Positions 13,629 through 64,000 of a stretch of DNA of 64,000 bases are shown here, piece after piece. How positions within the stretch are numbered: position 1 is the first letter of the stretch; each line of letters begins with the position of its first letter. This DNA is from a virus. Taxonomy: Duplodnaviria > Caudoviricetes. The notes under the pieces are model-generated. The model did no database searches. It saw only the letters and a program-made list of their open reading frames with translations, and was not told the DNA's origin. The position numbers were made by a program, and so were the translations under genes. Where the stretch lies: IMG/VR virus record IMGVR_UViG_2718218393_000006, positions 32,001 through 96,000 of that record; one strand, given 5' to 3'.

Positions 13629-14645
13629 TCAACGCGCGCCCGTTGGTTTGCGCGTCATCTCCCCCAGCAGCTGGCTAACCGGAGTGGAGACCTTGCTCAA
13701 CGGATTCGCTTTGTCCACGCTGCCCGTCAGCTTACGGATTGCCAGGTGGGTGTAGATGCTGGTGGACTTCGGGTCCGCGTGCCCCATCAGCTGCTGACGC
13801 TCCAGGACGTCCACCGCCTCCTCCGCTAACTCGGTGCCGTAGAGGTGGCGCAGGGCATGAGGGTGCAGCTGCGCCGCGGGAATCCCCGCCGCCATGCCAT
13901 GGCGCCGCAACATGGCAAATGCCCCCCGCGTGGAAAAGCGGCGGCGCTCGCCGTAGTACTCATGCGCCGGGCAGCGTCGGTTCCGGGTAGTCACGAACAG
14001 CACCTGGTCGCCATCCTCGGTGCCGCGATCGATCTCGGCCAGGCCAGGGTGCTCCAGGTACACGCGCAGCAGCAGATCCGCCTCCCGCGGGACTGGAATC
14101 AGGCGTTCCTTGTCGCCCTTCTCGATCGGCCGGATCGCCATCCGGGTTTCACCGTCGATGGTCTGCGTGGTCAGGTGCCCCTCATTCAGCCGAACCAGGC
14201 CGCTGATACGGACGCCGCAGCCGATCAGCACCGCCAGCATGGCCGCATCGCGCACGCCCTCAAAACGGTTGAAATCCGGGGCCCACATCAACCGTTCCGC
14301 GTTGCTCAACTCCATGGCGGTGGGCAACTTGCGCGGCTTGCGCGGATACGGGATCGAGGCGGCCGGGTCTCGCGGGATCGCCTTGCGCACAGACCAGAGA
14401 TATCGATACAGCTCGCGGATGCAGGCAACGTATGGCGTGCGGCTCACCGGCGCCAGGTGCAGCGCCTTGTGCAGGTATGGACCCGTGAAGGCCAGCAGCT
14501 GGTCCCCGTCTATGATCAGCGGATCTCGCCCATCCAGCCAGTCCTCAAACCTCTGCAGGATGTCGCGGTATGCCCGAATGGACCGATCCGCAAGTCCCTT
14601 GTTATCAGCTTTGAAGAGGAGAAACTCTTCCATCAGTCGATTCAT
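13629..14645 (-). CDS. Tyrosine recombinase / integrase (XerC/D-like)
   Basis: Catalytic R (GVRISG), K (EKGDKER), HxxR (HALRH), H (MGH), Y (SIYT); SAM-like N-terminus. Confidence 0.92.
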   Translation of the reverse strand: MNRLMEEFLLFKADNKGLADRSIRAYRDILQRFEDWLDGRDPLIIDGDQLLAFTGPYLHKALHLAPVSRTPYVACIRELYRYLWSVRKAIPRDPAASIPYPRKPRKLPTAMELSNAERLMWAPDFNRFEGVRDAAMLAVLIGCGVRISGLVRLNEGHLTTQTIDGETRMAIRPIEKGDKERLIPVPREADLLLRVYLEHPGLAEIDRGTEDGDQVLFVTTRNRRCPAHEYYGERRRFSTRGAFAMLRRHGMAAGIPAAQLHPHALRHLYGTELAEEAVDVLERQQLMGHADPKSTSIYTHLAIRKLTGSVDKANPLSKVSTPVSQLLGEMTRKPTGAR

Positions 14646-14680
14646 CACGGCTCCAAAAAAGGGACCCACTAGCAAAATAA

Positions 14681-15041
14681 CCTGTGGAATTGTGGATTGC
14701 CGCCGAAACCCGGCTAAAACCCTGCCCAATCAACATTTTACCATTCCACAAAATCCACCAAAACAGGGTTTTCTGGGTTTTGAAACTGTGGGTCAAAAAA
14801 TAGGCAGCACTCCGAAACCGTGGATTGCCCTCACCTCCTTTTTTCTCCGCTTTCTTTCTCTTTCTCTTTGATTTTTTAAAAGAAAAAAGAAAGAAAACCA
14901 AGGGGCGACTGAAATCGCGCTGTGGAGAAATCGGCAATTCCGTGGAATAGAAAATGAAACCGTGGATTAAAAAACGAAACCGTGGGCATGCTTTTCAGCA
15001 AAATCAATGACTTGCAACGGACCAGCGTTCAAATCCACGGG
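14681..15041. repeat. Cluster of (GAAA)CCGTGGA-like repeats around an AT-rich tract; iteron/origin or recombinase binding sites
   Basis: GAAACCGTGG at 14814, 14956, 14976; GAAACTGTGG 14782; CCGTGGA 14940; inverted TCCACGG 15034; T-/A-rich tract about 14838-14900. Confidence 0.55.
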
Positions 15042-53261: not shown

Positions 53262-54064
53262 GCATCCGTAGGTTCGTCGCCAAAGAGCATCCGCTTAGCC
53301 TCTTCAGCAGCGGCACGGTTCTGTTCGGCAAGGGTTGGCTTGCCACCGGATGGGCGGCTGGATTGAGGGGTGTCACGGTGCAGCCATTCGGCCTTGAAGC
53401 CCTGCCAACCGCGCTCGGCGGAAATTTGGATCGCCTGGGCCAACGTCAGGCCGGCAATTGCGGCTTCGCGCTCGATGCCGGCAAGGGCGGTGGCAGTCAG
53501 CGGTGCGCGCTTGGCCTTGCGGATGAGCAAGAAGTCGGCGGCATGCAGAGGATCAACTCCCCTCAGTTTCAGGTCTTTGGCTGTAAGGGGCTTGCTATTT
53601 TCGTCGTCCGCGGACGCGGGCGGAGTACTGTTTTTACTACCATCTGTGTAACTATCTGGTAAGCCATCTGGTATAGGTTCGCCCTTCTGGGCGTTTCGTT
53701 TCGCCCGTTTGGGCGCTTCCATTTGCCCATTTGGGCAGATGAGATGCCCGTTCAGGAAAATGGATTCGTCCACGAAGGCATACCACAAAGTCCGGTCGTA
53801 GCCCTGGTCGTTGTAGTTGCCCTTCATGATCACGCCGTGGCGGACAAGGCTGTCTAAAACGCGGCGAATTTGCTTCTCAGACAGGTACGGGAACAGCTCG
53901 CCAAAGGCCTTGATGCTGTTGTATGTCCAAGTCCGTCCGTCGTAGAGGTGGCGCCCATTAGCCTTGTTCTTGGCAATCCAGAACGCCATGTTGTTGATGA
54001 ACACTGCCTCCTCTACGCCATACATGGCGGCATGGGCGATATCGAACGAGTGAACTACGCTCAT
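53258..54064 (-). CDS. Phage replication initiator (O-like)
   Basis: N-terminal winged helix (DGRTWTYNS...FPYLS), C-terminal WQGFKAEW; internal iterons. Confidence 0.8.
   Translation of the reverse strand: MSVVHSFDIAHAAMYGVEEAVFINNMAFWIAKNKANGRHLYDGRTWTYNSIKAFGELFPYLSEKQIRRVLDSLVRHGVIMKGNYNDQGYDRTLWYAFVDESIFLNGHLICPNGQMEAPKRAKRNAQKGEPIPDGLPDSYTDGSKNSTPPASADDENSKPLTAKDLKLRGVDPLHAADFLLIRKAKRAPLTATALAGIEREAAIAGLTLAQAIQISAERGWQGFKAEWLHRDTPQSSRPSGGKPTLAEQNRAAAEEAKRMLFGDEPTDA
53681..53757. repeat. Replication origin iterons GCCCnTTTGGGC-like x4
   Basis: Palindromic units start at 53681, 53703, 53725, 53746 (22, 22, 21 bp spacing) inside the initiator gene. Confidence 0.72.
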
Positions 54065-54226
54065 TCCCGCTTGCCTCCATCGGTATTCGTTGCCATAATT
54101 TCTCCTGATCTTGATTAACCCCCGCGAGGCCCGGCCAGGCCGTTGACCGGGGGTTTTTCTTTTCCTGCAAGACTGCGAGACCTGCCCTCTGATATGCTTA
54201 AATCCCATTTGCATACAGGAGGCTGT

Positions 54227-54454
54227 ATGAAGACCTTCATCAACAAAATCAGATACGACCACTCGAACGGATATGCAGCAGTGGAGTTAATGATTCCTGC
54301 CGATAACGACGAGCTCGGATCGGTGGTCACCATTGATGTAGAAATCCCCATCAACAAGGCCTATGAGTCGAGCTACGGCGTCCTCATGGAGATGGCTATC
54401 CGCGAGGCTTGTCGCCACCACGCTTGGCTCGATAAAGCGCTCCGCCCGGCCTAA
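54227..54454 (+). CDS. Hypothetical protein
   Basis: AGGAGG RBS; 75 aa. Confidence 0.55.
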   Translation: MKTFINKIRYDHSNGYAAVELMIPADNDELGSVVTIDVEIPINKAYESSYGVLMEMAIREACRHHAWLDKALRPA

Positions 54455-54602
54455 GCTCATCCGCAATCGCGGCCTTGATCGCTTGCGGCAGCTGCGCGCT
54501 CAGTTCGCAAAGCTGCTGCTGCGTCGCCCCTAAGTCCGCCCGTAAGCCAGTCACCACGCTGCTCAGCGCATTGATCTGCTGCTGCAACTGTTCGATGTCC
54601 AT
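54396..54602 (-). CDS. Small coiled-coil phage protein
   Basis: MDIEQLQQQINAL...; coupled to the methylase. Confidence 0.5.
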   Translation of the reverse strand: MDIEQLQQQINALSSVVTGLRADLGATQQQLCELSAQLPQAIKAAIADELRPGGALYRAKRGGDKPRG

Positions 54603-55114
54603 CACTCCCCTCCCTTGATCTCGTGCGCCCGGCCGCCAGCGCCCGGCACCTTGTACGCGCTCAACTTGCATTGCCCGTTCTCGCCCGGCTTGTAGACCAC
54701 CAGCACGGCCGGGAACGGCGCCTTCGCCTTTGCCCCATCGAACCGCAGCCGCTTGTCCAGCGCGCGGATCTCCGCGGCCTTCAGCGCGTGGCGATGGAAC
54801 CAACGGGTATCCGTCCGCGCCGGCACCAGGCAGACCACCAGCGCGCCATCGATGCTGGAGCAGTAGGCCTTGGCCATCCACAGCTTGATCTGGTGGCCGA
54901 ACGGCGGGTTCATCCAGACGACGTCCCTGCCCCAGTCCTGGGCCAATCCATCCTGCTCGCGCGTGAAAAATCTCTCGCACTTGGCGTTCTCCGGCGTCGC
55001 GCAGACGTCCAGCGTGAACCCGAACTCCGCGTGCAGCTGGTCGAACAGCTCCTGCGGTGTCGGCCACTCGTCCGTTTTGCTGCTGAAATGCACCTGCTCG
55101 CTCAGATCCGCCAT
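54602..55114 (-). CDS. Phage DNA N6-adenine methyltransferase
   Basis: WPTPQ, FTLDVCA, WMNPPF, VPARTDT. Confidence 0.88.
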   Translation of the reverse strand: MADLSEQVHFSSKTDEWPTPQELFDQLHAEFGFTLDVCATPENAKCERFFTREQDGLAQDWGRDVVWMNPPFGHQIKLWMAKAYCSSIDGALVVCLVPARTDTRWFHRHALKAAEIRALDKRLRFDGAKAKAPFPAVLVVYKPGENGQCKLSAYKVPGAGGRAHEIKGGE

Positions 55115-55383
55115 CAGGCGGCCTCCGCGAGCGCATAGTCGTTGGCGGCTTCGCGAGGCAGGAACGGGGCGAGGCGCTCATCGCCAGTGAGTTCGTACAG
55201 CCTGGCGCGTTCCGCAACAGAAAAACGCGCCGGGCAGTGCGAAACCTTATCCCGGTTTATCTTTCTCCTCAGCGAATTGGGGTTTATGCCCAGCTCGTCC
55301 GCCAAGTGCTTCAACTTCAGCCCCGTCCGATCCTTCCAGTCGGCAACGACCTGGTAGATCACCACATCGATCTCAGAAAACAT
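55114..55383 (-). CDS. CII-like HTH regulator
   Basis: LADELGINPNSLRRKIN; position upstream of replication genes. Confidence 0.65.
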   Translation of the reverse strand: MFSEIDVVIYQVVADWKDRTGLKLKHLADELGINPNSLRRKINRDKVSHCPARFSVAERARLYELTGDERLAPFLPREAANDYALAEAA

Positions 55384-55638
55384 GGTTCGCAACATTTCCT
55401 TGAAAAGTGATCATTTTCAAAGGTTTAGTGCTTTGCCATACTTCACTCAGCACCAAGCCAGACCCGCTACAGCGCCTCGACCGGCTACCACCTTGGAGCG
55501 CGATGCGGGAGTTCTTTGACAACTGGATAAAACGCAAAGGAAATCCATAAATGCATGCACAAAGAAGTGGCGCCAGGCTGTCATACACACCGCAATCGTT
55601 GCAGCTATCGCAGGGAGCGAGTAAAGACGCACACGCAG

Positions 55639-55707
55639 AAAGAATAACAATTTGTTATTCTTTTAGCAATAACATTTTGGGAGTTCCAGGCAATAACAAT
55701 TTGCTGT
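55639..55707. promoter_or_regulatory. OR-like operator cluster (AATAACA-N3-TGTTATT)
   Basis: Perfect palindrome AAAGAATAACAA-T-TTGTTATTCTTT 55639-55663 plus degenerate copies at about 55668 and 55692. Confidence 0.75.
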
Positions 55708-55718
55708 CAAATCGCAGC

Positions 55719-56084
55719 ATGGAAAGTAAAGAATTTCGTCGTGCCAACTTGCTTGCCTTGATCGAGCAATATGGAACAATCAGGCACCTAGCCGAAAAGG
55801 TTGATGTGGCCCCAAACCATCTGAGCCTTGTGAAAAACCATGTAAGAAACATGGGGGATAAGCTTGCGCGTCGCATCGAGGAGGCTGTAGGAAAGCCAGT
55901 GGGCTGGATGGACTTGCCTCACGATGGTGGCGACTTGGACCTAGCCCAAGATGTGGCATCAGTTACGATCACAGCTCAGTCTGAAGAGGAGCTCGTGAAG
56001 CTCCTGCGCGAAAAGGGCGAAGCCTACGCGTTCGAACTGCTCCGCAAGGCATTCATGGAGCAGGAAAACAAAAAGGGCGACTGA
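55719..56084 (+). CDS. CI-like HTH repressor without S24 peptidase domain
   Basis: RRANLLAL...RNMGDKLARRIE...GWMD; divergent from the replication operon. Confidence 0.8.
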   Translation: MESKEFRRANLLALIEQYGTIRHLAEKVDVAPNHLSLVKNHVRNMGDKLARRIEEAVGKPVGWMDLPHDGGDLDLAQDVASVTITAQSEEELVKLLREKGEAYAFELLRKAFMEQENKKGD

Positions 56085-56103
56085 TGTCGCCCCACTCTAC
56101 CCT

Positions 56104-56301
56104 CTAGGCCGCAAACCTGGCCTGGGTCAAATCTAGACTACTCACATCCCCGCTCCGCACAAACTCCAAGGAGCCATCTTGGTAGCGCCTGAGCGCCACT
56201 TCGGCGACAACCGGGCCGCGCGCGTCGAAACCAGCTCTGTGGTGATGACAGTTTGCCGCATGCACACATGGCGCATGAGCGGTATTGCAATTGCTCTGCA
56301 T
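56104..56301 (-). CDS. Small ORF (65 aa), candidate LuxR-controlled antirepressor
   Basis: GGAG/AGGA RBS; TACGAT -10 at 56331-56326; palindromes upstream. Confidence 0.5.
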   Translation of the reverse strand: MQSNCNTAHAPCVHAANCHHHRAGFDARGPVVAEVALRRYQDGSLEFVRSGDVSSLDLTQARFAA

Positions 56302-56386
56302 TCCTAACTCCGTTTCAGGTGCTCAATCGTAGCCGTCTGTCATATGTCACTACTGACATCTTCTTGTTTTATTGCCACATTGTCCC

Positions 56387-56404
56387 ACCTGACATCTGTC
56401 AGGT
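56387..56404. promoter_or_regulatory. lux/tra-box-like palindrome ACCTGACATCTGTCAGGT
   Basis: Perfect 8-bp arms with ACCTG...CAGGT ends, next to the luxR gene. Confidence 0.6.
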
Positions 56405-56480
56405 CATTACTAGAAATAGTAAGAAAATCTGTACACAGTAAAAATACGTATTTATAAATACATGGTTTAAATGCCATGTA

Positions 56481-57233
56481 TTATTCGCATGCCCCGATCT
56501 TGTACATCAGCTGCTCTACAGTTGACGCCTCGTAAGTCTCCATCAGGCGTCCGATGTGGTAATCGATTGTGTAGACACTCTTGCCTAAAGCTGATGCCAC
56601 CTCTGCTCTTTTAAACCCTCGCTTACAATACAGATCGATTACGGTTTGCTGGATTTTGCTCGTTTTAGCAATTCGTGCGTTTGAGGCAAAAACTCTATGC
56701 GCGACCTCGGCCAGATCGGGAAGCAGCATTTCGAGCAAATCACGCAGCGCGCGGTCGTCTTCCACCTGGCGCCCAATCATCGACAGCACGTATCGAACAC
56801 CGCCGCCCTTATCGGCAATGTAGGTCAGGCCATGCGTTAGCTTGTGGTGCTCGCAATCAGAGACGAACCTCCGCTGCGCCTGGGTCAGGCCCTGGGCGTA
56901 GAGCCGCGTCGACCACACAACCGGCTCACCTGCGGACGCCCTCACAATGGGGTCAACCTTCACGTAACCACGCTCTACGTACCGCAGCAACCAATCCTCA
57001 GACCAGCCGTGATTTATGTACAGCGATGGCACCTTGGTCCCGTAGAACGTCGCCAACAGCGTCGGCGCACCGCCGGCTACCGTGCACACCAGAGCCAGGG
57101 CCGCGTCAAGATCATCGCGCGTCCGAGCACGCACCAGCATGCTGCGCAGCGCTGCAGCAGCGCAGATTGCTGCATTGATTCTGTTATTGGATATCGCCGC
57201 GACTTCCGGCAGCTGATCGATAGCTGTCGTCAT
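56481..57233 (-). CDS. LuxR-family AHL-binding transcriptional regulator (LuxR solo)
   Basis: W-xxx-Y (WLLRY), DP, W (VVWS) and G (THGL) of the autoinducer-binding domain; C-terminal LuxR HTH. Confidence 0.88.
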   Translation of the reverse strand: MTTAIDQLPEVAAISNNRINAAICAAAALRSMLVRARTRDDLDAALALVCTVAGGAPTLLATFYGTKVPSLYINHGWSEDWLLRYVERGYVKVDPIVRASAGEPVVWSTRLYAQGLTQAQRRFVSDCEHHKLTHGLTYIADKGGGVRYVLSMIGRQVEDDRALRDLLEMLLPDLAEVAHRVFASNARIAKTSKIQQTVIDLYCKRGFKRAEVASALGKSVYTIDYHIGRLMETYEASTVEQLMYKIGACE

Positions 57234-57297
57234 GAGTCCTCCCCGTCTATTCAAGGTAGGACATTTCAACGACGCAGAAAACCGCGCCGCCGATTTC

Positions 57298-57633
57298 TCA
57301 GCGTGCGGTGGTCAGTAGCCGCTGCACCAGGCGCCAGACTTCGTCCGGCCCTTTGCTCAGCATTTGCTCAGCTACATCTTCCAGCGAGTCCGCAGAGACG
57401 TAAGGGGCCTCCGTGCTCGCCAAGGGCGTCTTACGCCCCTTGCCTGTCTCCAGCCATGTCAGCGAGACCCCCAGCGCCTTCGCAATGCCCGGCAGCTTGG
57501 CAGACTCGCGATTGCGACCATTCTCCAGGTCAGCAACTATCGACCGACTGCAACCGGCCCGCCGGCCAAGATCTTCCTGGCGCCAGCCGCGGCGCATGCG
57601 CTCGGCCCTGATTCGATCACCTCTTACATTCAT
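57298..57633 (-). CDS. XRE-family HTH regulator
   Basis: GDRIRAER...QEDLG...LENG...IAKALGVSLTWLETG. Confidence 0.85.
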   Translation of the reverse strand: MNVRGDRIRAERMRRGWRQEDLGRRAGCSRSIVADLENGRNRESAKLPGIAKALGVSLTWLETGKGRKTPLASTEAPYVSADSLEDVAEQMLSKGPDEVWRLVQRLLTTAR

Positions 57634-57652
57634 GCCGCATTGTCGATTACGG

Positions 57653-57685
57653 CAGAGATGCCATGGCACCATTCAGAGATGGCAT
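57653..57685. promoter_or_regulatory. Putative operator of the xre-luxR operon
   Basis: CAGAGATG(C/G)CAT repeated 21 bp apart. Confidence 0.4.
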
Positions 57686-57703
57686 TACATCACAATCGGG
57701 CGC

Positions 57704-57728
57704 AAAAAAGCCCGCGTGAGCGGGCTTG
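57704..57728 (-). terminator. Intrinsic terminator downstream of the ParA-like gene
   Basis: AAGCCCGC-loop-GCGGGCTT + T-tract on the minus strand. Confidence 0.7.
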
Positions 57729-57890
57729 TTGCGGGCGCCAGGTGTTTTTATCTGAACGGGTGGGCTCAGCCTGGGCTTGAGGTGAGTCTGCCGGTGGTGG
57801 CCGGCGCGGTCAAGACAAAGGAAAACCCGCCGGAGCGGGTTAGGGAAATTGGCAAGTATATTTTGCCGCTTCAAGCGGAAGGATTGTAAA

Positions 57891-58928
57891 TTACAACACA
57901 CTAACTAAATAGGCCAACTCTCTCTGGTAGCGGGTAACAGACGAATTTACTTGAAGCCTCTTCCCTTCCACAGTATGAAAACCACCTATTTGAAGCTTTG
58001 AAATAGGGATGCTTTTTGCACCACTAATTCGACCTGAAGAAACGAAATCATCAGTTAGAACAAATGCATCCGCAGGATCTGACACATCAAAAGCATGATA
58101 AAATTTTTCTGCAATTGAAAGCGCACGCTCGACATACATTTTTGATGCTCTATCAGGCGTGGAACGTATTCGACTTTTCGAACCTACCATTGTCATGACA
58201 ATTGCAGCTACTTTAGGCACTGACAATCCCCCAGCACGTTCATTCCATACCGCAAAATCTCGCTTATTATTATGAAGCATATCCAACGTAAGCTCCAGCG
58301 ACTCAATAGAGTGCTCGTCTACTCGCACAGGTATAACCAATGCGTCTGCAGCACACCATGCAAGATGGGTTCCGCCCGCATAAAATGGGCTTGTATCGAT
58401 GAGAACGCCTTCAGCTTTTTTTTCTTTTGCCTCTTCCGCTAGAACATTTTTCAAGCTCTCCAGCAAAGACTTCACAGCTTTGGGATTGCTTTGCGAGTGC
58501 GCCAGCTGCAGCTGCTGATAAAGTGTCGAAGGAAATGCAAACATTTCAGCATCTCCAGGAACAACATAGCTCGGCTTTGTTGTTTTAAAAGCACCACAAT
58601 ATTGAGAAACTCTATATGAAAGATCAGATGGCTTTTCACCAAATGCAGGACCAAGCAGTACAGGCTGCAAGCCCTTTAGAATAGTCACCTCTGGAGTTTC
58701 ATCACGCATTAGAGTTTCACTCAGATTGCACTGAGGGCAAACATCTGCGACAAGCATTGGCCTTCTGATACTCATTTCAAATGCCAAATTGAAGCTAAGC
58801 GTGGACTTGCCGACACCACCTCGTAGTGTAGTGACGGCATAGTTTTTGTATTTTAAATCTCCCGCTCTGACGAAGCCTTCTTCCACGACTTTTCGATGCG
58901 TTTCAAAGATTTTATCCAGGCCACCCAT
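57891..58928 (-). CDS. Orphan ParA/MinD-family ATPase (345 aa), low GC
   Basis: LRGGVGKST, ADVCPQCNLS, LIDTSP, ADALVIPV; no ParB partner. Confidence 0.85.
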   Translation of the reverse strand: MGGLDKIFETHRKVVEEGFVRAGDLKYKNYAVTTLRGGVGKSTLSFNLAFEMSIRRPMLVADVCPQCNLSETLMRDETPEVTILKGLQPVLLGPAFGEKPSDLSYRVSQYCGAFKTTKPSYVVPGDAEMFAFPSTLYQQLQLAHSQSNPKAVKSLLESLKNVLAEEAKEKKAEGVLIDTSPFYAGGTHLAWCAADALVIPVRVDEHSIESLELTLDMLHNNKRDFAVWNERAGGLSVPKVAAIVMTMVGSKSRIRSTPDRASKMYVERALSIAEKFYHAFDVSDPADAFVLTDDFVSSGRISGAKSIPISKLQIGGFHTVEGKRLQVNSSVTRYQRELAYLVSVL

Positions 58929-58970
58929 TTTAGCTTCCCCAAATGTTGAGTTTGTACGGCAGACGAGTTG

Positions 58971-58999
58971 AGCATAGCATGCAGGTGGTGCAGGTGCAA
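58971..58999 (-). promoter_or_regulatory. Sigma70-type promoter of the ParA-like gene, embedded in the proximal repeat
   Basis: TTGCAC-17 bp-TATGCT with extended TGn. Confidence 0.6.
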
Positions 59000-59134
59000 C
59001 GAAGAAGTGCAGGTGGTGCAGGTGAAACGAAGAAGTGCAGGTGGTGCAGGTGCAACGAATAAGTGCAGGTGATGCAGGTGAAACGAAGAAGTGCAGGTGG
59101 CGCAGGTGCAACGAAGAAGTGCAGGTGGTGCAGG
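58980..59134. repeat. Tandem array of 5.5 x 28 bp: TGCAGGTGGTGCAGGTG(C/A)AACGAAGAAG
   Basis: Units start at 58980, 59008, 59036, 59064, 59092, 59120. Confidence 0.95.
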
Positions 59135-59232
59135 AGTTGACGGTAAAAATAAAGAGAGCACTCAACTGCGCCAAGCCTCGGCCGGTTCATCACCATTCAA
59201 GTGGCGGGGCAGAGATTGGGCTCCGACACCTG

Positions 59233-59427
59233 CTATATGGACACATACCGCCAAGTCTTGAGCCCCATCTTGAGTGCGGCAAACTTGGCGGATTCCTTGT
59301 TGCCCCATAGCGGGGTAGCGCTCAGATCCAGGGCTTCGGCCAGTGTGTGGCCGGCCTCGGGCTTGTCGCGCTGGTACACGTACCACTTCACCTTATCGCC
59401 AGTCGTTGCCAGTACGTAGGTCGCCAT
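59233..59427 (-). CDS. Hypothetical protein (64 aa)
   Basis: MATYVLATTGDKVKW...; AAGGG RBS. Confidence 0.55.
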   Translation of the reverse strand: MATYVLATTGDKVKWYVYQRDKPEAGHTLAEALDLSATPLWGNKESAKFAALKMGLKTWRYVSI

Positions 59428-59489
59428 GTTGAGCCCTTTAACTGTCGGCATCTCCGCAGCACGCACTCGTCCACCGTTTGCGGCTGTCT

Positions 59490-59903
59490 TTATTTCTTCT
59501 CAAGCCAATAATGCATCCGACTGTCCGGGTCCTCCATCAAGGATTTGCACATGTCGGAATACTGGAAGAGCAGTCCATCAAAACCTTCGTTTGCTAAGGC
59601 TTTTGACTCGATCTGGGTGTGTAGCAGGAGCTTTGATCGAGCGTATTCCGGCGGCTGCCCCTCCATCAGCACTTCAAGCATCTGCATCGCATGGAGAGCA
59701 GATGTCTTACTTGCCTTTGCAGCTGCCTTCCATTTGCTGTCCGTCCGCCCTGATTCTTCTGAGACCGTTGAAACAATTGTGTAGTAAGCGGCGCATGCAG
59801 CCATGTCGTCCGCGAGATTTGCAATGGCCGTTGGTGTGTCATATGCCTTTGCAGGGCTGGTAGCCAACAGGCCAATGCTGGCCGCCAATACACACACCTT
59901 CAT
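59490..59903 (-). CDS. Exported hypothetical protein
   Basis: Signal peptide ending AKA; CAAYY...C. Confidence 0.6.
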   Translation of the reverse strand: MKVCVLAASIGLLATSPAKAYDTPTAIANLADDMAACAAYYTIVSTVSEESGRTDSKWKAAAKASKTSALHAMQMLEVLMEGQPPEYARSKLLLHTQIESKALANEGFDGLLFQYSDMCKSLMEDPDSRMHYWLEKK

Positions 59904-59979
59904 CTCTGTCCCATCAGATGCGGCAGACGCCTCTGTCGCAACTCCGTGAACACAGACTTTTCGTCGAAGCCGCCGGACA

Positions 59980-60375
59980 TCAGCATCCCAGCCATGGCGC
60001 AATATCCGACTTGTTCTGCACCGCATCCGCCCAGGTACTCATCGGAGTAGCTTTGCCGTTCTTAATCGTCCAGCGCATCAAAAACTCTCTGTAGTAGCGA
60101 GCATCATCCGGTGTTGGTGGCGGCGCCGCGGCGATGATGTGCAGCAGCTGATTTTTAGGGTCGCCTCCAGTGTTCGTCAGCTCCGAAAATCTCTTGTCGA
60201 TCTTGAAGCGGCAGGCCTTAAAGGCGTCCCACGCCGTGCCGTGCGCCGCGCTAGGGATCGCCTTCAGCGCAGCCTCAATCCGTGTCATCGAATCGGCGTA
60301 AGTTGCGGTCGGCACCAGAGCCAGGATGCAAGCGAATACCCATACCTTCACAACCCTCTCCTTTACCCGCATCAA
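59980..60375 (-). CDS. Exported hypothetical protein
   Basis: Signal peptide ending TYA. Confidence 0.55.
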   Translation of the reverse strand: MMRVKERVVKVWVFACILALVPTATYADSMTRIEAALKAIPSAAHGTAWDAFKACRFKIDKRFSELTNTGGDPKNQLLHIIAAAPPPTPDDARYYREFLMRWTIKNGKATPMSTWADAVQNKSDIAPWLGC

Positions 60376-60408
60376 AGGGCGGCTCGGTCACTTACCCCTG
60401 CCAGAGCC

Positions 60409-60831
60409 TCAGTCTGTAGCCGTCTGTACAACTGACATAGAGGCTGACTGGTCGATCAGCACTCGGAAGCGAGCCTCCTGCTCGGCCCCCGCCACGCCGG
60501 CCACCTCCTTCAGATTGCCACCACAAAACGCTCCGTTCGGTTCAGCGCCAATCACTACCGATCCCGGGTTGCTCCTCAATCTGACAACCTCGCCAGCCCC
60601 TAGGAGGGCGCGCAACTTTCCATTCACGTAGATGCGGGTATCACAGGCTGAGCCGACCATTCCAGCGTCACGCTTCACCAGTATCTGCGCACTCCCTTCA
60701 CCAATATCCATGACTTTGCTCGGCTCTACCGGCCTTGCTTTTGCAAAAGAAACTGGCTGCGTCGCGCAGGCGCTCAGGACAAGTGAAAAAGCAATGCACA
60801 TTGAAATTTTCCACATGTGAAGCAAACCCAA
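60409..60831 (-). CDS. Lipoprotein
   Basis: Lipobox LSAC; KRDAGMVGSAC motif. Confidence 0.75.
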   Translation of the reverse strand: MGLLHMWKISMCIAFSLVLSACATQPVSFAKARPVEPSKVMDIGEGSAQILVKRDAGMVGSACDTRIYVNGKLRALLGAGEVVRLRSNPGSVVIGAEPNGAFCGGNLKEVAGVAGAEQEARFRVLIDQSASMSVVQTATD

Positions 60832-60898
60832 TGGTTGACATTGGCATCTTACACTTGGCTACAAGCCAAGCCAATCTGCATTACTTTATCGGGATCGA

Positions 60899-61504
60899 TC
60901 ATGCCAAAAGTAGTTTGATGAAACTCAGCACCGCCAATGGACCCCGGTGCCTAATTTCCTCTGCCAGCTTCTCGTCAGACAACTTGGGCAGCATGCCTAC
61001 CGTGGCATGATTATTGTCCAGCCACGCGTTCGGAAGGCCAGCAGCCACTTCGATCTTCCTGGCGATCTCATCACCGCAGCGCCGCTCCCCTGACTTGACG
61101 GTGCTTAAGTAAGAGGGCGATGTCCCTACCTCGCTGGCAAGCTTTGCCGCCATGCCACGAATTGCCAAAATGGACATAAGGTTATCTCGGCGAATTCCAT
61201 ATACGTCCTTCAGCTCGCCAAGGGGTTCTACGGGAACGTCTGCATCCCCGCCTCCAGGGAAGTCCATCCAGCCTCTCGGCTTACCAACAGCGGCCTCAAT
61301 CTTTCTGGCCAGCAATTCCCCCACCCTCTTCTTGTCGTTCTTCACCTGACTTAAGTAATTCGGCTTGATCCCAAGCTTGCTCGCCAGCTCGGCCGTTGCC
61401 CCTCGGCGTGCCACAAGTGAAAACAGCTTCTCCTTGCGCACTTCGAAAACGTCGGCAAATCCGTGCCCCTCTTCACGCTGCGTCTCTTCGTCATCATCGC
61501 TCAT
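60899..61504 (-). CDS. Repressor-like protein with two tandem CI-type HTH domains
   Basis: Two repeats of LAS..G..P.YLS.VK...R..G...ARKIE.A.G.P..W.D; GGAGG RBS. Confidence 0.8.
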   Translation of the reverse strand: MSDDDEETQREEGHGFADVFEVRKEKLFSLVARRGATAELASKLGIKPNYLSQVKNDKKRVGELLARKIEAAVGKPRGWMDFPGGGDADVPVEPLGELKDVYGIRRDNLMSILAIRGMAAKLASEVGTSPSYLSTVKSGERRCGDEIARKIEVAAGLPNAWLDNNHATVGMLPKLSDEKLAEEIRHRGPLAVLSFIKLLLA

Positions 61505-61562
61505 TCCAACCTCCCGTCTCCAATGCCAGCATCTTACAGCCATGGGTTGGGCGGCGTGGCGG

Positions 61563-61649
61563 GCAATTACACAATGTAATTGCATTAAAGCAACACAACC
61601 AATTGGAAATATCATTTTGTTATTGATTGATGAATATCTGTTTGTTATT
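61563..61649. promoter_or_regulatory. OL-like operators plus a second palindrome
   Basis: AATATCATTTTGTTATT 61608-61624 and AATATCTGTTTGTTATT 61633-61649 match the OR motif; GCAATTACA-CAA-TGTAATTGC 61563-61583. Confidence 0.65.
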
Positions 61650-61680
61650 GTTACCCCATCAGCACAGCAACACAGTGCAC

Positions 61681-62090
61681 CGATCTCTAACAACCAGCAG
61701 CGATACGGCACAGCCCAGGGCGCGCAGCAAGGCACCCCCTGTCAGGTCTCAGACCTGAGGAAGCGATGGCCAAGTCATGCAGAAGCACCTGCATGTCGCG
61801 CAAGAGGTTCGCAAGGAGCGGACCAATGACAGCGCAAGCGCCCACCCCACCGTGGCGAGTAACGGGGGAGTGAAGTAGAAGGCCGCTTTGAGAGAGGCGG
61901 CACACTGGATGGGATCGCGCACTGGACATGCGCAAGCGGCGGCAACCGCGAGGCCCAAGCTGGAAAGTAGGTGTCTGCCAGCCTCATCCAGTGTGAGCGG
62001 TAAACAGGCGAGAGCGGCCTGAGTAAAACGGCTTATGCGACTGGCCCGGTCGTTAAACGGGCACCCACACGCCTGGGTCCTTTGGCTGGA
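61681..62090 (+). ncRNA. Putative large structured RNA in the early (pL-like) leader, after a boxA-like sequence
   Basis: Nested stems, long-range CACACTGGATG/CATCCAGTGTG, several GNRA-like loops, no convincing ORF. Confidence 0.5.
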
Positions 62091-62148
62091 CAGCGCCAAG
62101 AGCGGGCCTCCTCAGTTCCCAGCCGTGTAGGTCAACGCCAGGAGAAGC

Positions 62149-62292
62149 ATGGATATATTTTTGCTCTGGCTTTGGATTCTGATTGGTTGGCGCCCGCGAG
62201 AGCGACTTTCCTCGCGCGGCAAGGAAGTCAGATCCACTACGGCAGTAGCATCGCCACCACCTCAGATGGCCTGCGCGAAGGGCGCGCAGTAG
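62149..62292 (+). CDS. Small hydrophobic peptide (47 aa, MDIFLLWLWILIGWRPRER...)
   Basis: AGGAG RBS; below the ORF-track cutoff. Confidence 0.35.
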   Translation: MDIFLLWLWILIGWRPRERLSSRGKEVRSTTAVASPPPQMACAKGAQ

Positions 62293-62351
62293 CCATCGCC
62301 AACCTGAGAGACGGGCCGCTTCGGCGGCCGAGACAACTGAAAGGACATCGC

Positions 62352-62531
62352 ATGAGCGAACAGGGTTTCACGAAGGGCCAGGCGGTCAGCTTCACCACCA
62401 TCCACGGCCGCGAAGGTAAAGGCAAGATCATCGACATCACCAAGGGCGCCAAGGGCGACTTCATCAAAGTGCAGGAAGACGGCAGCGACAAGGTGACATC
62501 CTGCCGCCCGAAGCAGCTGAAGGCCGCCTAA
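62352..62531 (+). CDS. Small SH3/Tudor-like beta protein (59 aa)
   Basis: AAGGA RBS; FTKGQAVSF...GKGKII. Confidence 0.65.
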   Translation: MSEQGFTKGQAVSFTTIHGREGKGKIIDITKGAKGDFIKVQEDGSDKVTSCRPKQLKAA

Positions 62532-62948
62532 GCCGCCGCCGGCGACAGCCGGCTGCATTGCTGAACGCCTTGTGCGAGCAAGTGTAGCGCTGGCCGCGCT
62601 TACCGGGCGCCACCCGGGCAGGAGCCACAAGACGTTCAGCAATGCAGTGTAGACCCCCGTACTGTGCCGGGGCCGCTTCGGCGGGACACCTTCCGGTTGC
62701 GCACCCCAACCGACTGCGCAGATGGGTGGGTCACAGAACACCGTAGACCCTTGCAGCAGCGCCGGCAGCCTTCACAGGTAGTCTGATGCCGGTAGGACCG
62801 CTGATTTCAGCGGTGGGGCCGAGGGCCACGCCCTCCCCGGCTGGATGATGGATCATGCCAGTCGCCCCACCCCTGCGATTCGCAGGTTTCTCCTCAGTTT
62901 TCCTTAATTTACCCGGCCCTCGCGCCGGGTTTCTTTTTGGAGTTCGCC

Positions 62949-63128
62949 ATGCACACCTTCACCGTCGAATTCGTGCCGCGCGCCAAGACCAAGGGTGCCA
63001 CCCTCCGCATCGAGGGTGTGCAGGCATCAGACAGACACTCCGCCATCATCCGCGCCGCCAGCCAGGAGCGAATCAACGCTGCCAACTACAAGCCGCGCGC
63101 CACCCTTCAGCGAAAGGAAGCAGCATGA
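62949..63128 (+). CDS. Early phage hypothetical protein
   Basis: GGAG RBS; coupled chain of small ORFs. Confidence 0.55.
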   Translation: MHTFTVEFVPRAKTKGATLRIEGVQASDRHSAIIRAASQERINAANYKPRATLQRKEAA

Positions 63129-63373
63129 TCGCCAACGCTACCGCGACGCCGGCCGCCGCGCAGATCAACGTCGACTGTCGCAAACTGCAGGCCGCCAACT
63201 CCGGCTGCTATGCAGTGCATGCGATGTCCGGGTTTCGCGTCCACTTCCAGTATCCACGCACCCGCCGCCGCATCGACAACCTGATCGTGCTGGCCCGCAG
63301 CAAGGGCGAGGCGCTGGATCGCGCCGGCGCCATGCTGCCCGATTACCTCCCCACTGGAATGTCGCGGCTATGA
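63125..63373 (+). CDS. Early phage hypothetical protein
   Basis: ATGA-coupled; AAGGAAG RBS. Confidence 0.5.
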   Translation: MIANATATPAAAQINVDCRKLQAANSGCYAVHAMSGFRVHFQYPRTRRRIDNLIVLARSKGEALDRAGAMLPDYLPTGMSRL

Positions 63374-63468
63374 AGGCGCGGATCAAATACGCCCTGGGCG
63401 GGCTCGTCGCCACCTCCCTCTTCTTCGCCGCAGTCACTTTGGCTCAGGCCGTGGAGCAACTCCAATGA
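63370..63468 (+). CDS. Small hydrophobic early protein
   Basis: ATGA-coupled on both sides. Confidence 0.4.
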   Translation: MKARIKYALGGLVATSLFFAAVTLAQAVEQLQ

Positions 63469-63734
63469 CCGCACGTCAGTTCCTCCCTATTCAAGGTGCC
63501 ATCGCCCGCCACATTTACGGCGAACGCCTTGCCGCAACTCAGCCACTCGACTGTCCGCCGGCGCAGAGCGACTGGTCCGACGCAGACAGTTGCGAGGCCA
63601 CCATGGCGATGGCCGCGCAGGTGCTGTCGCTTGTCAACGCGATGCCGGACGGGCCGGCACGGCGCCAAACAGTTCGATTGCTGGAGTCGGCTCGTGCGAG
63701 CTACGCCCAGGCAGTGACGAGGGATGCCGCGTGA
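63465..63734 (+). CDS. Early phage hypothetical protein
   Basis: GGAG RBS; coupled. Confidence 0.5.
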   Translation: MTARQFLPIQGAIARHIYGERLAATQPLDCPPAQSDWSDADSCEATMAMAAQVLSLVNAMPDGPARRQTVRLLESARASYAQAVTRDAA

Positions 63735-63946
63735 TCCGCACCATCCCTCTCGATCGGATGCACAACACCTTGAAGTCGCGCCAGATCCAGCAAGGCGGAT
63801 CGTTGAAAGACACCCCGCCGCACGCCAGGCGCGCCGCCAAAAAACAGCGCGAGCGCCATGTGATCGAGGACATCCTCTTTCAGCTCAACGCGCCTTTAAC
63901 GAATAGGAGCAACAAGGATGATCGCAAACCTCTCAGGCGCGTCTGA
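63731..63946 (+). CDS. Early phage hypothetical basic protein
   Basis: GTGA-coupled. Confidence 0.4.
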   Translation: MIRTIPLDRMHNTLKSRQIQQGGSLKDTPPHARRAAKKQRERHVIEDILFQLNAPLTNRSNKDDRKPLRRV

Positions 63947-64000
63947 GCTGATCAGCGCCGCCAACCTGCTGGCCGAGTTTGTTGCCCGGGTGAACAGCTA

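What the first reader, a model, noticed from the sequence alone, without database searches (positions are those of the whole stretch)
55719..57685. Candidate AHL quorum-sensing lysis/lysogeny switch in an integrated lambdoid prophage: xre-luxR operon, lux-box-like palindrome and small ORF facing the repressor
Seen: a LuxR solo (56481-57233) sits in the immunity region with no luxI in the window. It keeps residues matching the six classic AHL-pocket positions (TraR W57, Y61, D70, P71, W85, G113). Just downstream is a perfect 18-bp palindrome ACCTGACATCTGTCAGGT (56387-56404) and a second TGACA-based palindrome ATGTCA-CTAC-TGACAT (56344-56359). A TACGAT -10 and a 65-aa ORF with a good RBS follow, converging on a CI-like repressor that has no RecA-cleavable domain. 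Known: phage VP882 uses a LuxR-type receptor (VqmA-phage) to switch on a small antirepressor (Qtip). Inference: this prophage senses host or competitor acyl-homoserine lactones and uses the small ORF as an antirepressor in place of SOS induction. Caveats: the CTG-CAG spacing is N8, not the N10 of the lux box, and the box lies near -76 rather than -42.5.
Basis: partly seen in the sequence, partly recalled or inferred. Interest (0 to 1): 0.88.

Follow-up and report, generated by a model that had tools for sequence, protein, structure and literature searches.

The report
Quorum-sensing switch module in Chromobacterium prophage
A Chromobacterium prophage carries, inside its immunity region, a LuxR-type homoserine-lactone receptor followed by a conserved 65-residue gene that abuts the phage repressor; it most likely lets the phage read its host's quorum signal when deciding to leave lysogeny, a variant of a mechanism shown so far only in two Aeromonas phages.

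Summary
The features are real. On the minus strand lie xre (57298-57633), a luxR solo (56481-57233), a 179-bp repeat-rich spacer, a 65-aa ORF (56104-56301) and a terminator. They converge on a 121-aa repressor with no peptidase domain.

The host is Chromobacterium; all 20 species genomes searched encode an AHL synthase. The small ORF is a real gene (pN/pS about 0.1). LuxR, small ORF and convergent repressor recur at 8 loci in 5 species and in 5 related proviruses, with LuxR identity down to 31%. In five further loci a small HTH protein replaces LuxR, while xre, the small ORF and the repressor stay. The repressor's N-terminal domain is homologous to SPC32H Rep, which an antirepressor inactivates.

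Two details need correction:
- The "lux box" is an 8+2+8 repeat, not a perfect palindrome.
- On the promoter conserved across relatives it lies in the -35/-10 spacer. A different dyad (56407-56422) sits at -42.5.

The closest precedent is the XRE-LuxR-smORF module of Aeromonas phages Apop and ARM81ld (Silpe 2023), not VP882. I rate it a new variant of a known kind: integrated lambdoid prophage, co-oriented small ORF, no sequence homology to the Aeromonas parts.

The parts
57298..57633 (-). xre: 111-aa HTH_3 protein, first gene of the xre-luxR operon. Its C-terminal 35 residues resemble the repressor's C-terminal helices.
   Evidence: Pfam HTH_3 1.4e-10. The start was revised because the upstream ATG frame has an in-frame stop in relatives. 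93-97% identical in five related proviruses and 51% in C. subtsugae.
56481..57233 (-). luxR solo: 250-aa LuxR-type receptor with an autoinducer-binding domain and a C-terminal HTH.
   Evidence: Autoind_bind 1.7e-15. CviR is the best solved relative, aligned over residues 72-236. All six canonical pocket residues are invariant in the clade. A GGGGAGG RBS precedes the ATG.
56302..56480 (-). Regulatory spacer between luxR and the small ORF. It is dense in inverted repeats and nearly invariant over its promoter-proximal 150 bp.
   Evidence: Alignment of six proviruses. 8 perfect repeats against 0.36 in shuffles.
56407..56422 (-). IR0: a 6+4+6 dyad centred at -42.5 of the conserved promoter. It is the best positional candidate for the LuxR activation site.
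   Evidence: Anchored alignment. Relatives show T..A, T..C and G..C states at the paired positions. Dyads at -42 to -43.5 in the paralogous modules change with the LuxR recognition helix.
56387..56404 (-). It spans -32 to -15 of the conserved promoter, an operator-like position in the spacer. What binds it is unassigned.
   Evidence: Invariant in all six window-type proviruses.
56379..56407 (-). Inferred small-ORF promoter: -35 ATGACC (56402-56407), 17-bp spacer, extended -10 TGGGACAAT (56379-56387). Predicted start near 56372.
   Evidence: The -35 and extended -10 are conserved in all ten subfamily-A sequences, including modules with 40-44% LuxR identity. It is below the threshold of the consensus scan. 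Inference only.
56344..56359 (-). IR2: a 6+4+6 dyad at about +14 to +29 of the inferred transcript, followed by TGACA direct repeats. Role unknown (downstream operator or leader hairpin).
   Evidence: Variation is confined to the central 4 nt. The leader fold is not significant, z -1.1.
56104..56301 (-). Small ORF (65 aa), the candidate antirepressor. It has an N-terminal Cys/His cluster and a confidently predicted beta-hairpin at residues 33-51.
   Evidence: pN/pS about 0.1. Homologs occur only in Chromobacterium. AF2 pLDDT is above 90 for the hairpin. No Pfam, PHROG or NCBIfam hit.
56074..56093 (-). Intrinsic terminator of the small-ORF transcript. It overlaps the 3' end of the repressor gene.
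   Evidence: 8-bp stem with 6 GC pairs and a T-run on the minus strand.
55719..56084 (+). CI-like repressor (121 aa): HTH domain 3-65, disordered linker, two-helix C-terminal domain 89-119 (encoded by 55962-56084). No peptidase domain.
   Evidence: PHROG transcriptional repressor families. AF2 model. The N-terminal domain is homologous to SPC32H Rep: Foldseek 7.5e-4, profile 1.7e-9. The last 40 residues are identical bar one E/D in proviruses whose N-terminal domains are clearly diverged (whole-protein identity 56-60%).
55643..55708 (.). OR-type operators of the repressor between cI and the cII-like gene. Related copies at 61608-61649 bracket a 6-kb immunity region that contains the module.
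   Evidence: 6 matches against 0.03 expected.

Best explanation
This is a quorum-sensing input to the prophage's lysis-lysogeny switch, built as a transcription-factor/small-ORF module inside the immunity region.

Proposed steps, all inferred:
1. xre and luxR are co-transcribed.
2. LuxR binds an acyl-homoserine lactone made by the Chromobacterium host.
3. LuxR, possibly together with XRE, acts on the promoter in the 179-bp spacer. The most likely site is the dyad centred at -42.5 (56407-56422). The 8+2+8 repeat in the -35/-10 spacer would be a second control site.
4. This switches on the 65-aa gene.
5. Its product, a small beta-hairpin protein, binds the non-cleavable CI-like repressor and inactivates it without proteolysis. 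The target is most likely the conserved two-helix C-terminal domain.
6. The early promoters are derepressed.

Shown here: gene content, coding status, conservation, synteny, change of the dyads together with the LuxR helix, repressor class, and AHL synthases in the hosts. Not shown: ligand binding, activation, and antirepression.
For: 1. LuxR has the AHL-binding domain, and all six canonical pocket residues are invariant across a clade of 31-88% identity.
2. All 20 Chromobacterium species genomes have an AHL synthase. The provirus has none.
3. The small ORF is protein-coding under purifying selection, with its own RBS and terminator.
4. luxR, a small ORF of the same family, a convergent repressor and a divergent early gene (cro-like or cII-like) recur at 8 loci in 5 species and in 5 IMG/VR proviruses.
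5. In the four subfamily-B modules a dyad is centred about -43.5 from a good TATAGT. In subfamily A, dyads lie at -42 to -43 from a conserved extended -10. Four dyad types go with four LuxR recognition-helix types.
6. Five further loci keep xre, the small ORF and the convergent repressor, but an HTH_3 protein replaces LuxR. The small ORF plus repressor is therefore the constant output and the regulator is an exchangeable input.
7. The conserved DNA block (57830-55967) ends inside the repressor gene. It keeps the repressor's C-terminal domain with the module while the DNA-binding domain and operators are swapped. Every repressor convergent on a LuxR-linked small ORF carries the same type of C-terminal motif, even where the HTH domains differ.
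8. The repressor's N-terminal domain is homologous to SPC32H Rep, solved in complex with its antirepressor. PMC7380047 summarises the mechanism.
9. The same logic, an xre-luxR operon with an AHL-dependent small ORF that inactivates cI, was demonstrated for Aeromonas phages Apop and ARM81ld (PMC10432266).
Against: - There are no functional data.
- The small ORF has no homology to any known antirepressor.
- It lies downstream of luxR and co-oriented with it, unlike the counter-oriented small ORFs of the Aeromonas modules.
- Physical linkage alone could explain why the repressor's C-terminal domain travels with the module.
- The promoter is inferred from conservation only and does not pass a consensus scan.
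- The perfectly conserved 8+2+8 repeat sits where a repressor would bind, so the sign of regulation is uncertain.
- The Pfam GerE model does not reach threshold on the LuxR C-terminus.
- The same C-terminal motif is also on XRE and on a second repressor at 60899-61735, so it may simply be a general oligomerisation domain.
Confidence: 0.55

Rival explanations
1. LuxR does control the small ORF, but the small protein is not an antirepressor of the adjacent CI. It could be a density-dependent accessory function such as superinfection exclusion, interference with host quorum sensing or with XRE, or a metal-binding regulator acting elsewhere.
For: No similarity to known antirepressors. The Cys/His cluster suggests another biochemistry. 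The module lies among variable cargo genes, such as the ParA-like gene, between the two operator sets.
Against: The gene is always placed against the 3' end of the repressor gene, in 13 loci with two different regulators. The Cys/His cluster is missing in subfamily B, so it is not the core. The repressor belongs to a class controlled by antirepressors.
Confidence: 0.15
2. The regulatory sign is the opposite or mixed. One version: apo-LuxR, or XRE, represses the small-ORF promoter by binding the 8+2+8 repeat in the -35/-10 spacer, and AHL relieves it (EsaR-like). Another version: AHL-LuxR represses, so that high density stabilises lysogeny.
For: On the conserved promoter the repeat spans -32 to -15, a classical operator position. 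It is perfectly conserved. An imperfect counterpart exists in a module with a different LuxR helix and no xre (L020).
Against: Subfamily B has only the -43.5 dyad and no spacer repeat, which fits simple activation. In the Aeromonas precedent the AHL-bound receptor activates. Part of the repeat's conservation may come from overlap with the core promoter.
Confidence: 0.15
3. The receptor does not sense an acyl-homoserine lactone. It responds to another ligand or is ligand-independent, and the module reports some other cue.
For: Only 25% identity to the host CviR-type receptor. Many substitutions between close relatives fall in residues 96-131 of the ligand domain. LuxR solos that bind other ligands are known (general knowledge).
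Against: All six residues typical of AHL binders are invariant, whereas solos that bind non-AHL ligands usually lack some of them (the contrast is general knowledge). Every host genome searched makes AHL.
Confidence: 0.1
4. The output is RNA-level. Convergent transcription from the small-ORF promoter interferes with repressor expression, by antisense pairing or polymerase collision, and the peptide is incidental.
For: The two genes converge with only 19 bp between their stop codons, and the terminator overlaps the repressor's 3' end.
Against: Strong purifying selection on the peptide. A peptide motif is conserved across 18-95% identity. A strong terminator lies before the repressor's coding body.
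Confidence: 0.05

Closest known systems
XRE-LuxR-smORF modules of Aeromonas linear plasmid-like phages Apop and ARM81ld (Silpe et al., Nature 2023, PMC10432266; Silpe & Bassler, mBio 2019, PMC6456758)
   Same: An xre-luxR operon in a phage, with a LuxR carrying an AHL-binding domain. A small unannotated ORF without homologs lies beside it, next to a cI-type repressor. Sister modules use a different regulator in place of LuxR. The host makes the AHL.
   Different: Here the phage is an integrated lambdoid prophage with an integrase, in a betaproteobacterium. The small ORF is downstream of luxR and co-oriented, convergent on cI, not counter-oriented upstream of xre. xre is absent from most paralogous LuxR modules. 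No sequence similarity to deposited phage LuxRs. The repressor has no cleavable domain. Function is untested.
VqmA(Phage)-Qtip of vibriophage VP882
   Same: A phage-encoded copy of a host quorum-sensing receptor switches on a small antirepressor of cI.
   Different: VqmA is not a LuxR-type AHL receptor; it senses DPO. VP882 is a plasmid-like phage. There is no homology of any part. This is a more distant analogy than the Aeromonas modules.
Rep-Ant of Salmonella phage SPC32H and the Gifsy/Fels antirepressor systems (PDB 5D50; PMC7380047)
   Same: The repressor's N-terminal domain is homologous (profile E 1.7e-9). The repressor is non-cleavable and is inactivated by a small protein rather than by RecA.
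   Different: Those antirepressors are LexA-controlled and report DNA damage. Here there is no LexA box and a LuxR-type regulator sits upstream. The repressor here is shorter (121 against 199 aa) with a different C-terminal domain. The small protein is unrelated to Ant.
CviI/CviR quorum sensing of Chromobacterium
   Same: CviR is the nearest solved relative of the phage receptor. The host system supplies the presumed ligand.
   Different: Only about 25% identity, and no synthase partner. The CviR box is CTG-N10-CAG (PMC12114271), whereas the dyads here have other sequences and spacings.

Membership tests
LuxR-type AHL receptors | N-terminal autoinducer-binding domain (PF03472) | tested here: met
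   E 1.7e-15, 57 bits against a cut-off of 23.
LuxR-type AHL receptors | Six conserved residues (TraR W57, Y61, D70, P71, W85, G113) | tested here: met
   W81, Y85, D94, P95, W107 and G135, by alignment to CviR. Invariant in 9 clade members.
LuxR-type AHL receptors | C-terminal LuxR/GerE-type HTH | tested here: inconclusive
   The Pfam GerE model gives no hit at E 0.01 or better. The phmmer alignment to full-length CviR does run through its DNA-binding domain to residue 236.
LuxR-type AHL receptors | Binds an acyl-homoserine lactone | not testable with these tools
   Needs binding or reporter assays.
LuxR solo | No cognate luxI nearby | tested here: met
   PF00765 is absent from the 110-kb record. 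The same search finds it in all 20 Chromobacterium genomes.
Phage TF-smORF induction modules (Silpe 2023) | Phage-encoded regulator next to a small ORF without homologs, beside the cI repressor | tested here: met
Phage TF-smORF induction modules (Silpe 2023) | Regulator slot varies between related phages while the small ORF and cI stay | tested here: met
   LuxR in 8 loci, an HTH_3 protein in 5 loci.
Phage TF-smORF induction modules (Silpe 2023) | Small ORF counter-oriented to the regulator operon | tested here: not met
   It is downstream and co-oriented, convergent on cI.
Phage TF-smORF induction modules (Silpe 2023) | Linear plasmid-like phage backbone (telN/repA or par locus) | tested here: not met
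   Integrase at 13629-14729 and a lambda-O-like replication gene. IMG/VR classes the record as a provirus. Only an orphan ParA-like gene is adjacent, and it is absent from relatives.
Phage TF-smORF induction modules (Silpe 2023) | Small protein inactivates cI without cleavage; regulator activates its promoter | not testable with these tools
   Needs genetics and biochemistry.
lux-box operators | 18-20-bp dyad with CTG-N10-CAG, centred near -42.5 | tested here: not met
   The 18-mer at 56387-56404 is CTG-N8-CAG. It is centred at -23.5 on the conserved promoter, or at -76.5 with TACGAT as -10. A different 16-bp dyad (56407-56422) is the one at -42.5.
Antirepressor-controlled non-cleavable phage repressors (SPC32H Rep type) | Homologous HTH domain and no S24 autoproteolysis domain | tested here: met
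   Profile E 1.7e-9 to 5D50 Rep and Foldseek 7.5e-4. No S24 domain.
Antirepressor-controlled non-cleavable phage repressors (SPC32H Rep type) | Antirepressor gene under LexA control | tested here: not met
   No CTGT-N8-ACAG anywhere in the window. The only two one-mismatch sites in 55000-62500 are at 55185 and 57958, not in the small-ORF promoter spacer.

The most novel reading that the evidence does not exclude
Chromobacterium prophages may share a plug-in induction system. One family of small beta-hairpin proteins would target a common two-helix C-terminal 'socket' on repressors whose DNA-binding domains differ. Interchangeable sensors would drive it: AHL-type LuxRs of at least four DNA specificities, or a small HTH protein. 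The socket is identical across different immunity types, and similar motifs also sit on XRE and on the second repressor of this prophage. One quorum signal could therefore induce, or cross-induce, several co-resident prophages of different immunity. That would be density-dependent crosstalk in polylysogens.
Probability: 0.25. Interest if true: 0.8.

Novelty: new variant of a known kind. Interest (0 to 1): 0.6.

Why it matters
Phage eavesdropping on AHL quorum sensing through a LuxR-plus-small-antirepressor module has been demonstrated only in two Aeromonas plasmid-like phages. If this module works as proposed, it extends the mechanism in several ways.

- It would apply to ordinary integrated lambdoid prophages, and to a betaproteobacterial genus that is the classic AHL model and biosensor organism.
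- It would apply to repressors that cannot be cleaved by RecA.
- The set of at least 13 paralogous modules offers natural swaps of sensor, operator and repressor DNA-binding domain. These can be used to dissect how the small protein recognises its target.
- They also allow a test of whether quorum signals coordinate induction among co-resident prophages.

All the proposed steps can be tested with standard reporters and lysogen assays.

Tried and rejected
The contexts of the database homologs P0001-P0005 could therefore not be fetched directly. The genome search and the search for related loci were used instead.
- LuxR peptide-pattern scan of genome contigs: no relatives. The divergent LuxR alignment was too variable for a viral-contig scan.
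- LuxR against deposited phages by tblastn: nothing at 1e-5. Only two weak SdiA-like hits in Acinetobacter records at E 1e-4. There is therefore no detectable link to the Aeromonas phage receptors.
- LexA control: no CTGT-N8-ACAG in the window. One match in the record lies 3 kb beyond the window and was not followed up.
- The 18-mer as a CviR box or LexA box: rejected on spacing, N8 against N10.
- A sigma-54 reading of the TGGGAC...GC stretch: the spacing is off by one and it is not conserved in L016, judged by eye.
- Leader RNA structure for 56290-56374: z -1.1, not significant.
- Rfam on 54000-64000: nothing near the module.
- Small ORF against Pfam, PHROGs, NCBIfam and the ESM Atlas: no hits. 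A 2783-aa protein with weak repeat matches was not pursued.
- Consensus promoter scan of 55000-58200: no site passes. The promoter proposed here rests on conservation alone.
- XRE against CI by BLAST: E 0.09 over the C-terminal halves only. This is suggestive but not proof of a shared domain.
Full report
**What is there**

The window is part of a 110-kb IMG/VR provirus record. The nearest database copies of its LuxR are annotated in Chromobacterium piscinae (96%) and C. violaceum (91%).

Read on the minus strand, the region contains the following features:
- a ParA-like gene (59174-57891) with its terminator;
- xre (57633-57298, HTH_3);
- luxR (57233-56481), 64 bp after xre;
- a 179-bp spacer;
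- a 65-codon ORF (56301-56104);
- an intrinsic terminator (56093-56074).

On the plus strand a 121-aa repressor (55719-56084) converges on that ORF. Beyond the repressor lie operator repeats. After them, on the minus strand, come a cII-like gene, a methyltransferase, a lambda-O-like replication gene and the rest of an early-right operon.

An integrase lies at 13629-14729. Copies of the repressor's operator occur at 55643-55708 and again at 61608-61649, next to a two-HTH repressor (60899-61735). The module therefore sits inside a 6-kb immunity region bracketed by operator sets.

**Check of the observation**

- The LuxR has the autoinducer-binding domain.
- Its best solved relative is CviR, the Chromobacterium receptor. 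The alignment covers both the ligand domain and the DNA-binding domain.
- The residues equivalent to TraR W57, Y61, D70, P71, W85 and G113 are W81, Y85, D94, P95, W107 and G135. They are invariant in nine members of the phage clade.
- No AHL synthase domain is found in the whole record. The same search finds one or two in each of 20 Chromobacterium species genomes.
- The 18-mer at 56387-56404 exists but is an 8+2+8 inverted repeat, not a perfect palindrome. The 6+4+6 repeat at 56344-56359 is as described.
- An 8-bp arm occurs in 1.75% of shuffles. The spacer as a whole holds 8 perfect repeats against 0.36 expected.
- xre begins at the ATG at 57633. The longer frame is closed by a stop in relatives.

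**The small ORF is a gene**

Five related IMG/VR proviruses carry the same block. Across the six sequences, 20 of 29 variable columns in the ORF are third codon positions, and pN/pS is 0.05-0.18. Synonymous divergence reaches 0.18-0.32. In contrast, the 150 bp of spacer upstream of the ORF are almost invariant, which indicates constraint on non-coding sequence.

An exhaustive profile search of 1.8 billion representatives found relatives only in Chromobacterium. AlphaFold2 on an 11-row alignment gives a confident beta-hairpin at residues 33-51 (pLDDT above 90). The N-terminal Cys/His cluster has low confidence.

**Comparative anatomy**

Searching the genus with the LuxR found 8 loci in 5 of 20 species genomes, at 88-31% identity. 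A family-wide profile search of 68 genomes found no other members. The next hits are far weaker and belong to another arrangement.

Every one of the 8 loci has luxR, then a small ORF of 53-76 codons, then a convergent repressor. In most, a divergent cro-like gene follows; the window itself has a cII-like gene there instead. The small ORFs align as one family around the hairpin motif. Subfamily A adds the Cys/His cluster and subfamily B lacks it. xre precedes luxR only in the window type, in L015 and in the C. subtsugae locus.

Searching the genus with the small-ORF profile found 13 solid loci. In five of them (L039, L040, L042, L044, L052) the same xre and the same small-ORF-plus-repressor arrangement are kept, but a 107-111-aa HTH_3 protein stands where luxR would be. 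So the small ORF and the repressor are the constant part, and the regulator is an exchangeable input.

**The promoter and the 'lux box'**

In subfamily B the spacer is short, with a good TATAGT. A 14-16-bp dyad is centred about -43.5, the geometry of class II LuxR-type activation.

In subfamily A, all ten sequences share a -35 of the form [AG]TGAC[CAT], a 17-18-bp spacer and an extended -10, TGGGA[CA]AAT. This includes modules with only 40-44% LuxR identity. In the window these are 56402-56407 and 56379-56387.

On this promoter:
- The dyads of L016 and L017 are centred at -43 and -42.
- In the window the dyad at that position is a different one, 56407-56422, centred at -42.5. Its paired positions show T..A, T..C and G..C states among close relatives.
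- The second palindrome falls at about +14 to +29.
- TACGAT lies in a block that is conserved together with the RBS.

The dyad types track the LuxR recognition helix. Window and L015 share one helix and one set of dyads. L016 and L017 share another. L018, L019 and L021 share a third. L022 has a fourth. This is the best evidence that LuxR acts on this promoter. It favours the -42.5 dyad as the activation site. The binder of the 18-mer remains unassigned: it could be LuxR at a second site, XRE, or partly core-promoter constraint.

The promoter is inferred from conservation. It does not pass the consensus scan.

**The repressor**

It has no peptidase domain. The model shows an HTH domain, a disordered linker and a two-helix C-terminal hairpin. 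The N-terminal domain is homologous to Rep of Salmonella phage SPC32H, solved in complex with its antirepressor (Foldseek E 7.5e-4; profile E 1.7e-9). In that class, induction works through an antirepressor and not through RecA cleavage (PMC7380047).

Between the window and the five related proviruses, the repressor's N-terminal DNA-binding domain is clearly diverged (whole-protein identity 56-60%) and the operators differ. The last 40 residues are identical apart from one E/D change. At the DNA level the conserved block runs from 57830 to 55967, ending inside the repressor gene.

All repressors convergent on LuxR-linked small ORFs carry the same kind of C-terminal motif, even where the HTH domains differ. 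A similar motif ends XRE and the second repressor. This fits a model in which the small protein targets the C-terminal domain. Linkage, or a general oligomerisation role, could explain it as well.

**Mechanism and its limits**

The best-supported reading is an AHL-responsive regulator/small-ORF induction module. It is equivalent in logic to the XRE-LuxR-smORF modules of Aeromonas phages Apop and ARM81ld. There, AHL-bound LuxR together with XRE activates a small ORF whose product inactivates cI without cleavage (PMC10432266).

No similarity to those proteins is detectable. The receptor is only about 25% identical to a host CviR-type receptor, so it is an old, separate lineage.

Differences from the precedent:
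- an integrated lambdoid prophage;
- a small ORF that is co-oriented and convergent on cI;
- xre is optional;
- a non-cleavable repressor.

'In place of SOS' is not established. The window has no LexA box, but the prophage extends beyond the window. One such motif lies 3 kb further on.

**Literature**

Full-text searches found no description of a LuxR-type receptor in a Chromobacterium prophage. One transcriptome paper lists prophage proteins among quorum-controlled genes of C. subtsugae and gives the CviR-type box (PMC12114271).

**Verdict**

The cis-element assignment needs revision, and the mechanism has not been tested. I rate it a new variant of a known kind.

Noticed in passing
L002 (own record G000:C1:9644-10366, about 22 kb before the window start); L026-L031: A second, unrelated family of LuxR solos (240 aa, 27% identical to the one studied). 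It sits directly after tail-fibre and tail-fibre-assembly genes. Next to it, on the opposite strand, are a secreted protein and one or two tandem xre genes. The arrangement recurs in several Chromobacteriaceae genomes. No small ORF of the family studied here lies beside it.
   Followed up: partly
window 57700-57835 (-): A conserved element of about 130 nt just upstream of the xre promoter. It has a TTGACC promoter-like hexamer, two stems and a strong terminator. It is kept even in the C. subtsugae module (51% XRE identity), although the genes upstream differ. It is a candidate small RNA or leader. There is no Rfam hit, and 2 of 29 predicted pairs show compensatory change.
   Followed up: partly
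L039, L040, L042, L044, L052: Sister modules in five Chromobacterium loci (five species genomes). xre, then a 107-111-aa HTH_3 protein in place of luxR, then a small ORF of the same family, then a convergent repressor. A dyad overlaps the stop codon of the HTH gene, with a compensatory T/A change in the arms in L042.
   Followed up: partly
window 57891-59174 (-): An orphan ParA-like ATPase (PHROG 164, E 2.7e-36) in a low-GC stretch beside the module. It is absent from the five related proviruses, which keep only its upstream flank, so it is variable cargo here.
   Followed up: partly
window 55643-55708 and 61608-61649; 60899-61735 (-): The repressor's operator motif occurs at both ends of a 6-kb stretch. 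The far set adjoins a repressor with two HTH domains of the same family and the same kind of C-terminal motif. This looks like a split immunity region with two related repressors.
   Followed up: partly
own record G000:C1:99115-99130 (window coordinate about 67115, outside the window; L035): The only exact CTGT-N8-ACAG motif in the 110-kb record. It lies within the 137-aa HTH-type ORF at L035 1270-1683, downstream of an SSB-like gene. It could be a LexA site or a half CviR-type box.
   Followed up: no
window 56442-56453 and 56429-56439: Two further palindromes in the luxR-proximal part of the spacer: a 12-bp one built around TACGTA, and a CTGT-GT-ACAG type. The TACGTA core recurs at the same relative place in modules of both subfamilies. 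No binder is assigned.
   Followed up: no
LuxR residues 96-131 (window 56841-56948): Most amino-acid differences between the window's LuxR and its 88-92% relatives cluster in this part of the ligand-binding domain. This could reflect different acyl-chain preference, or drift.
   Followed up: no
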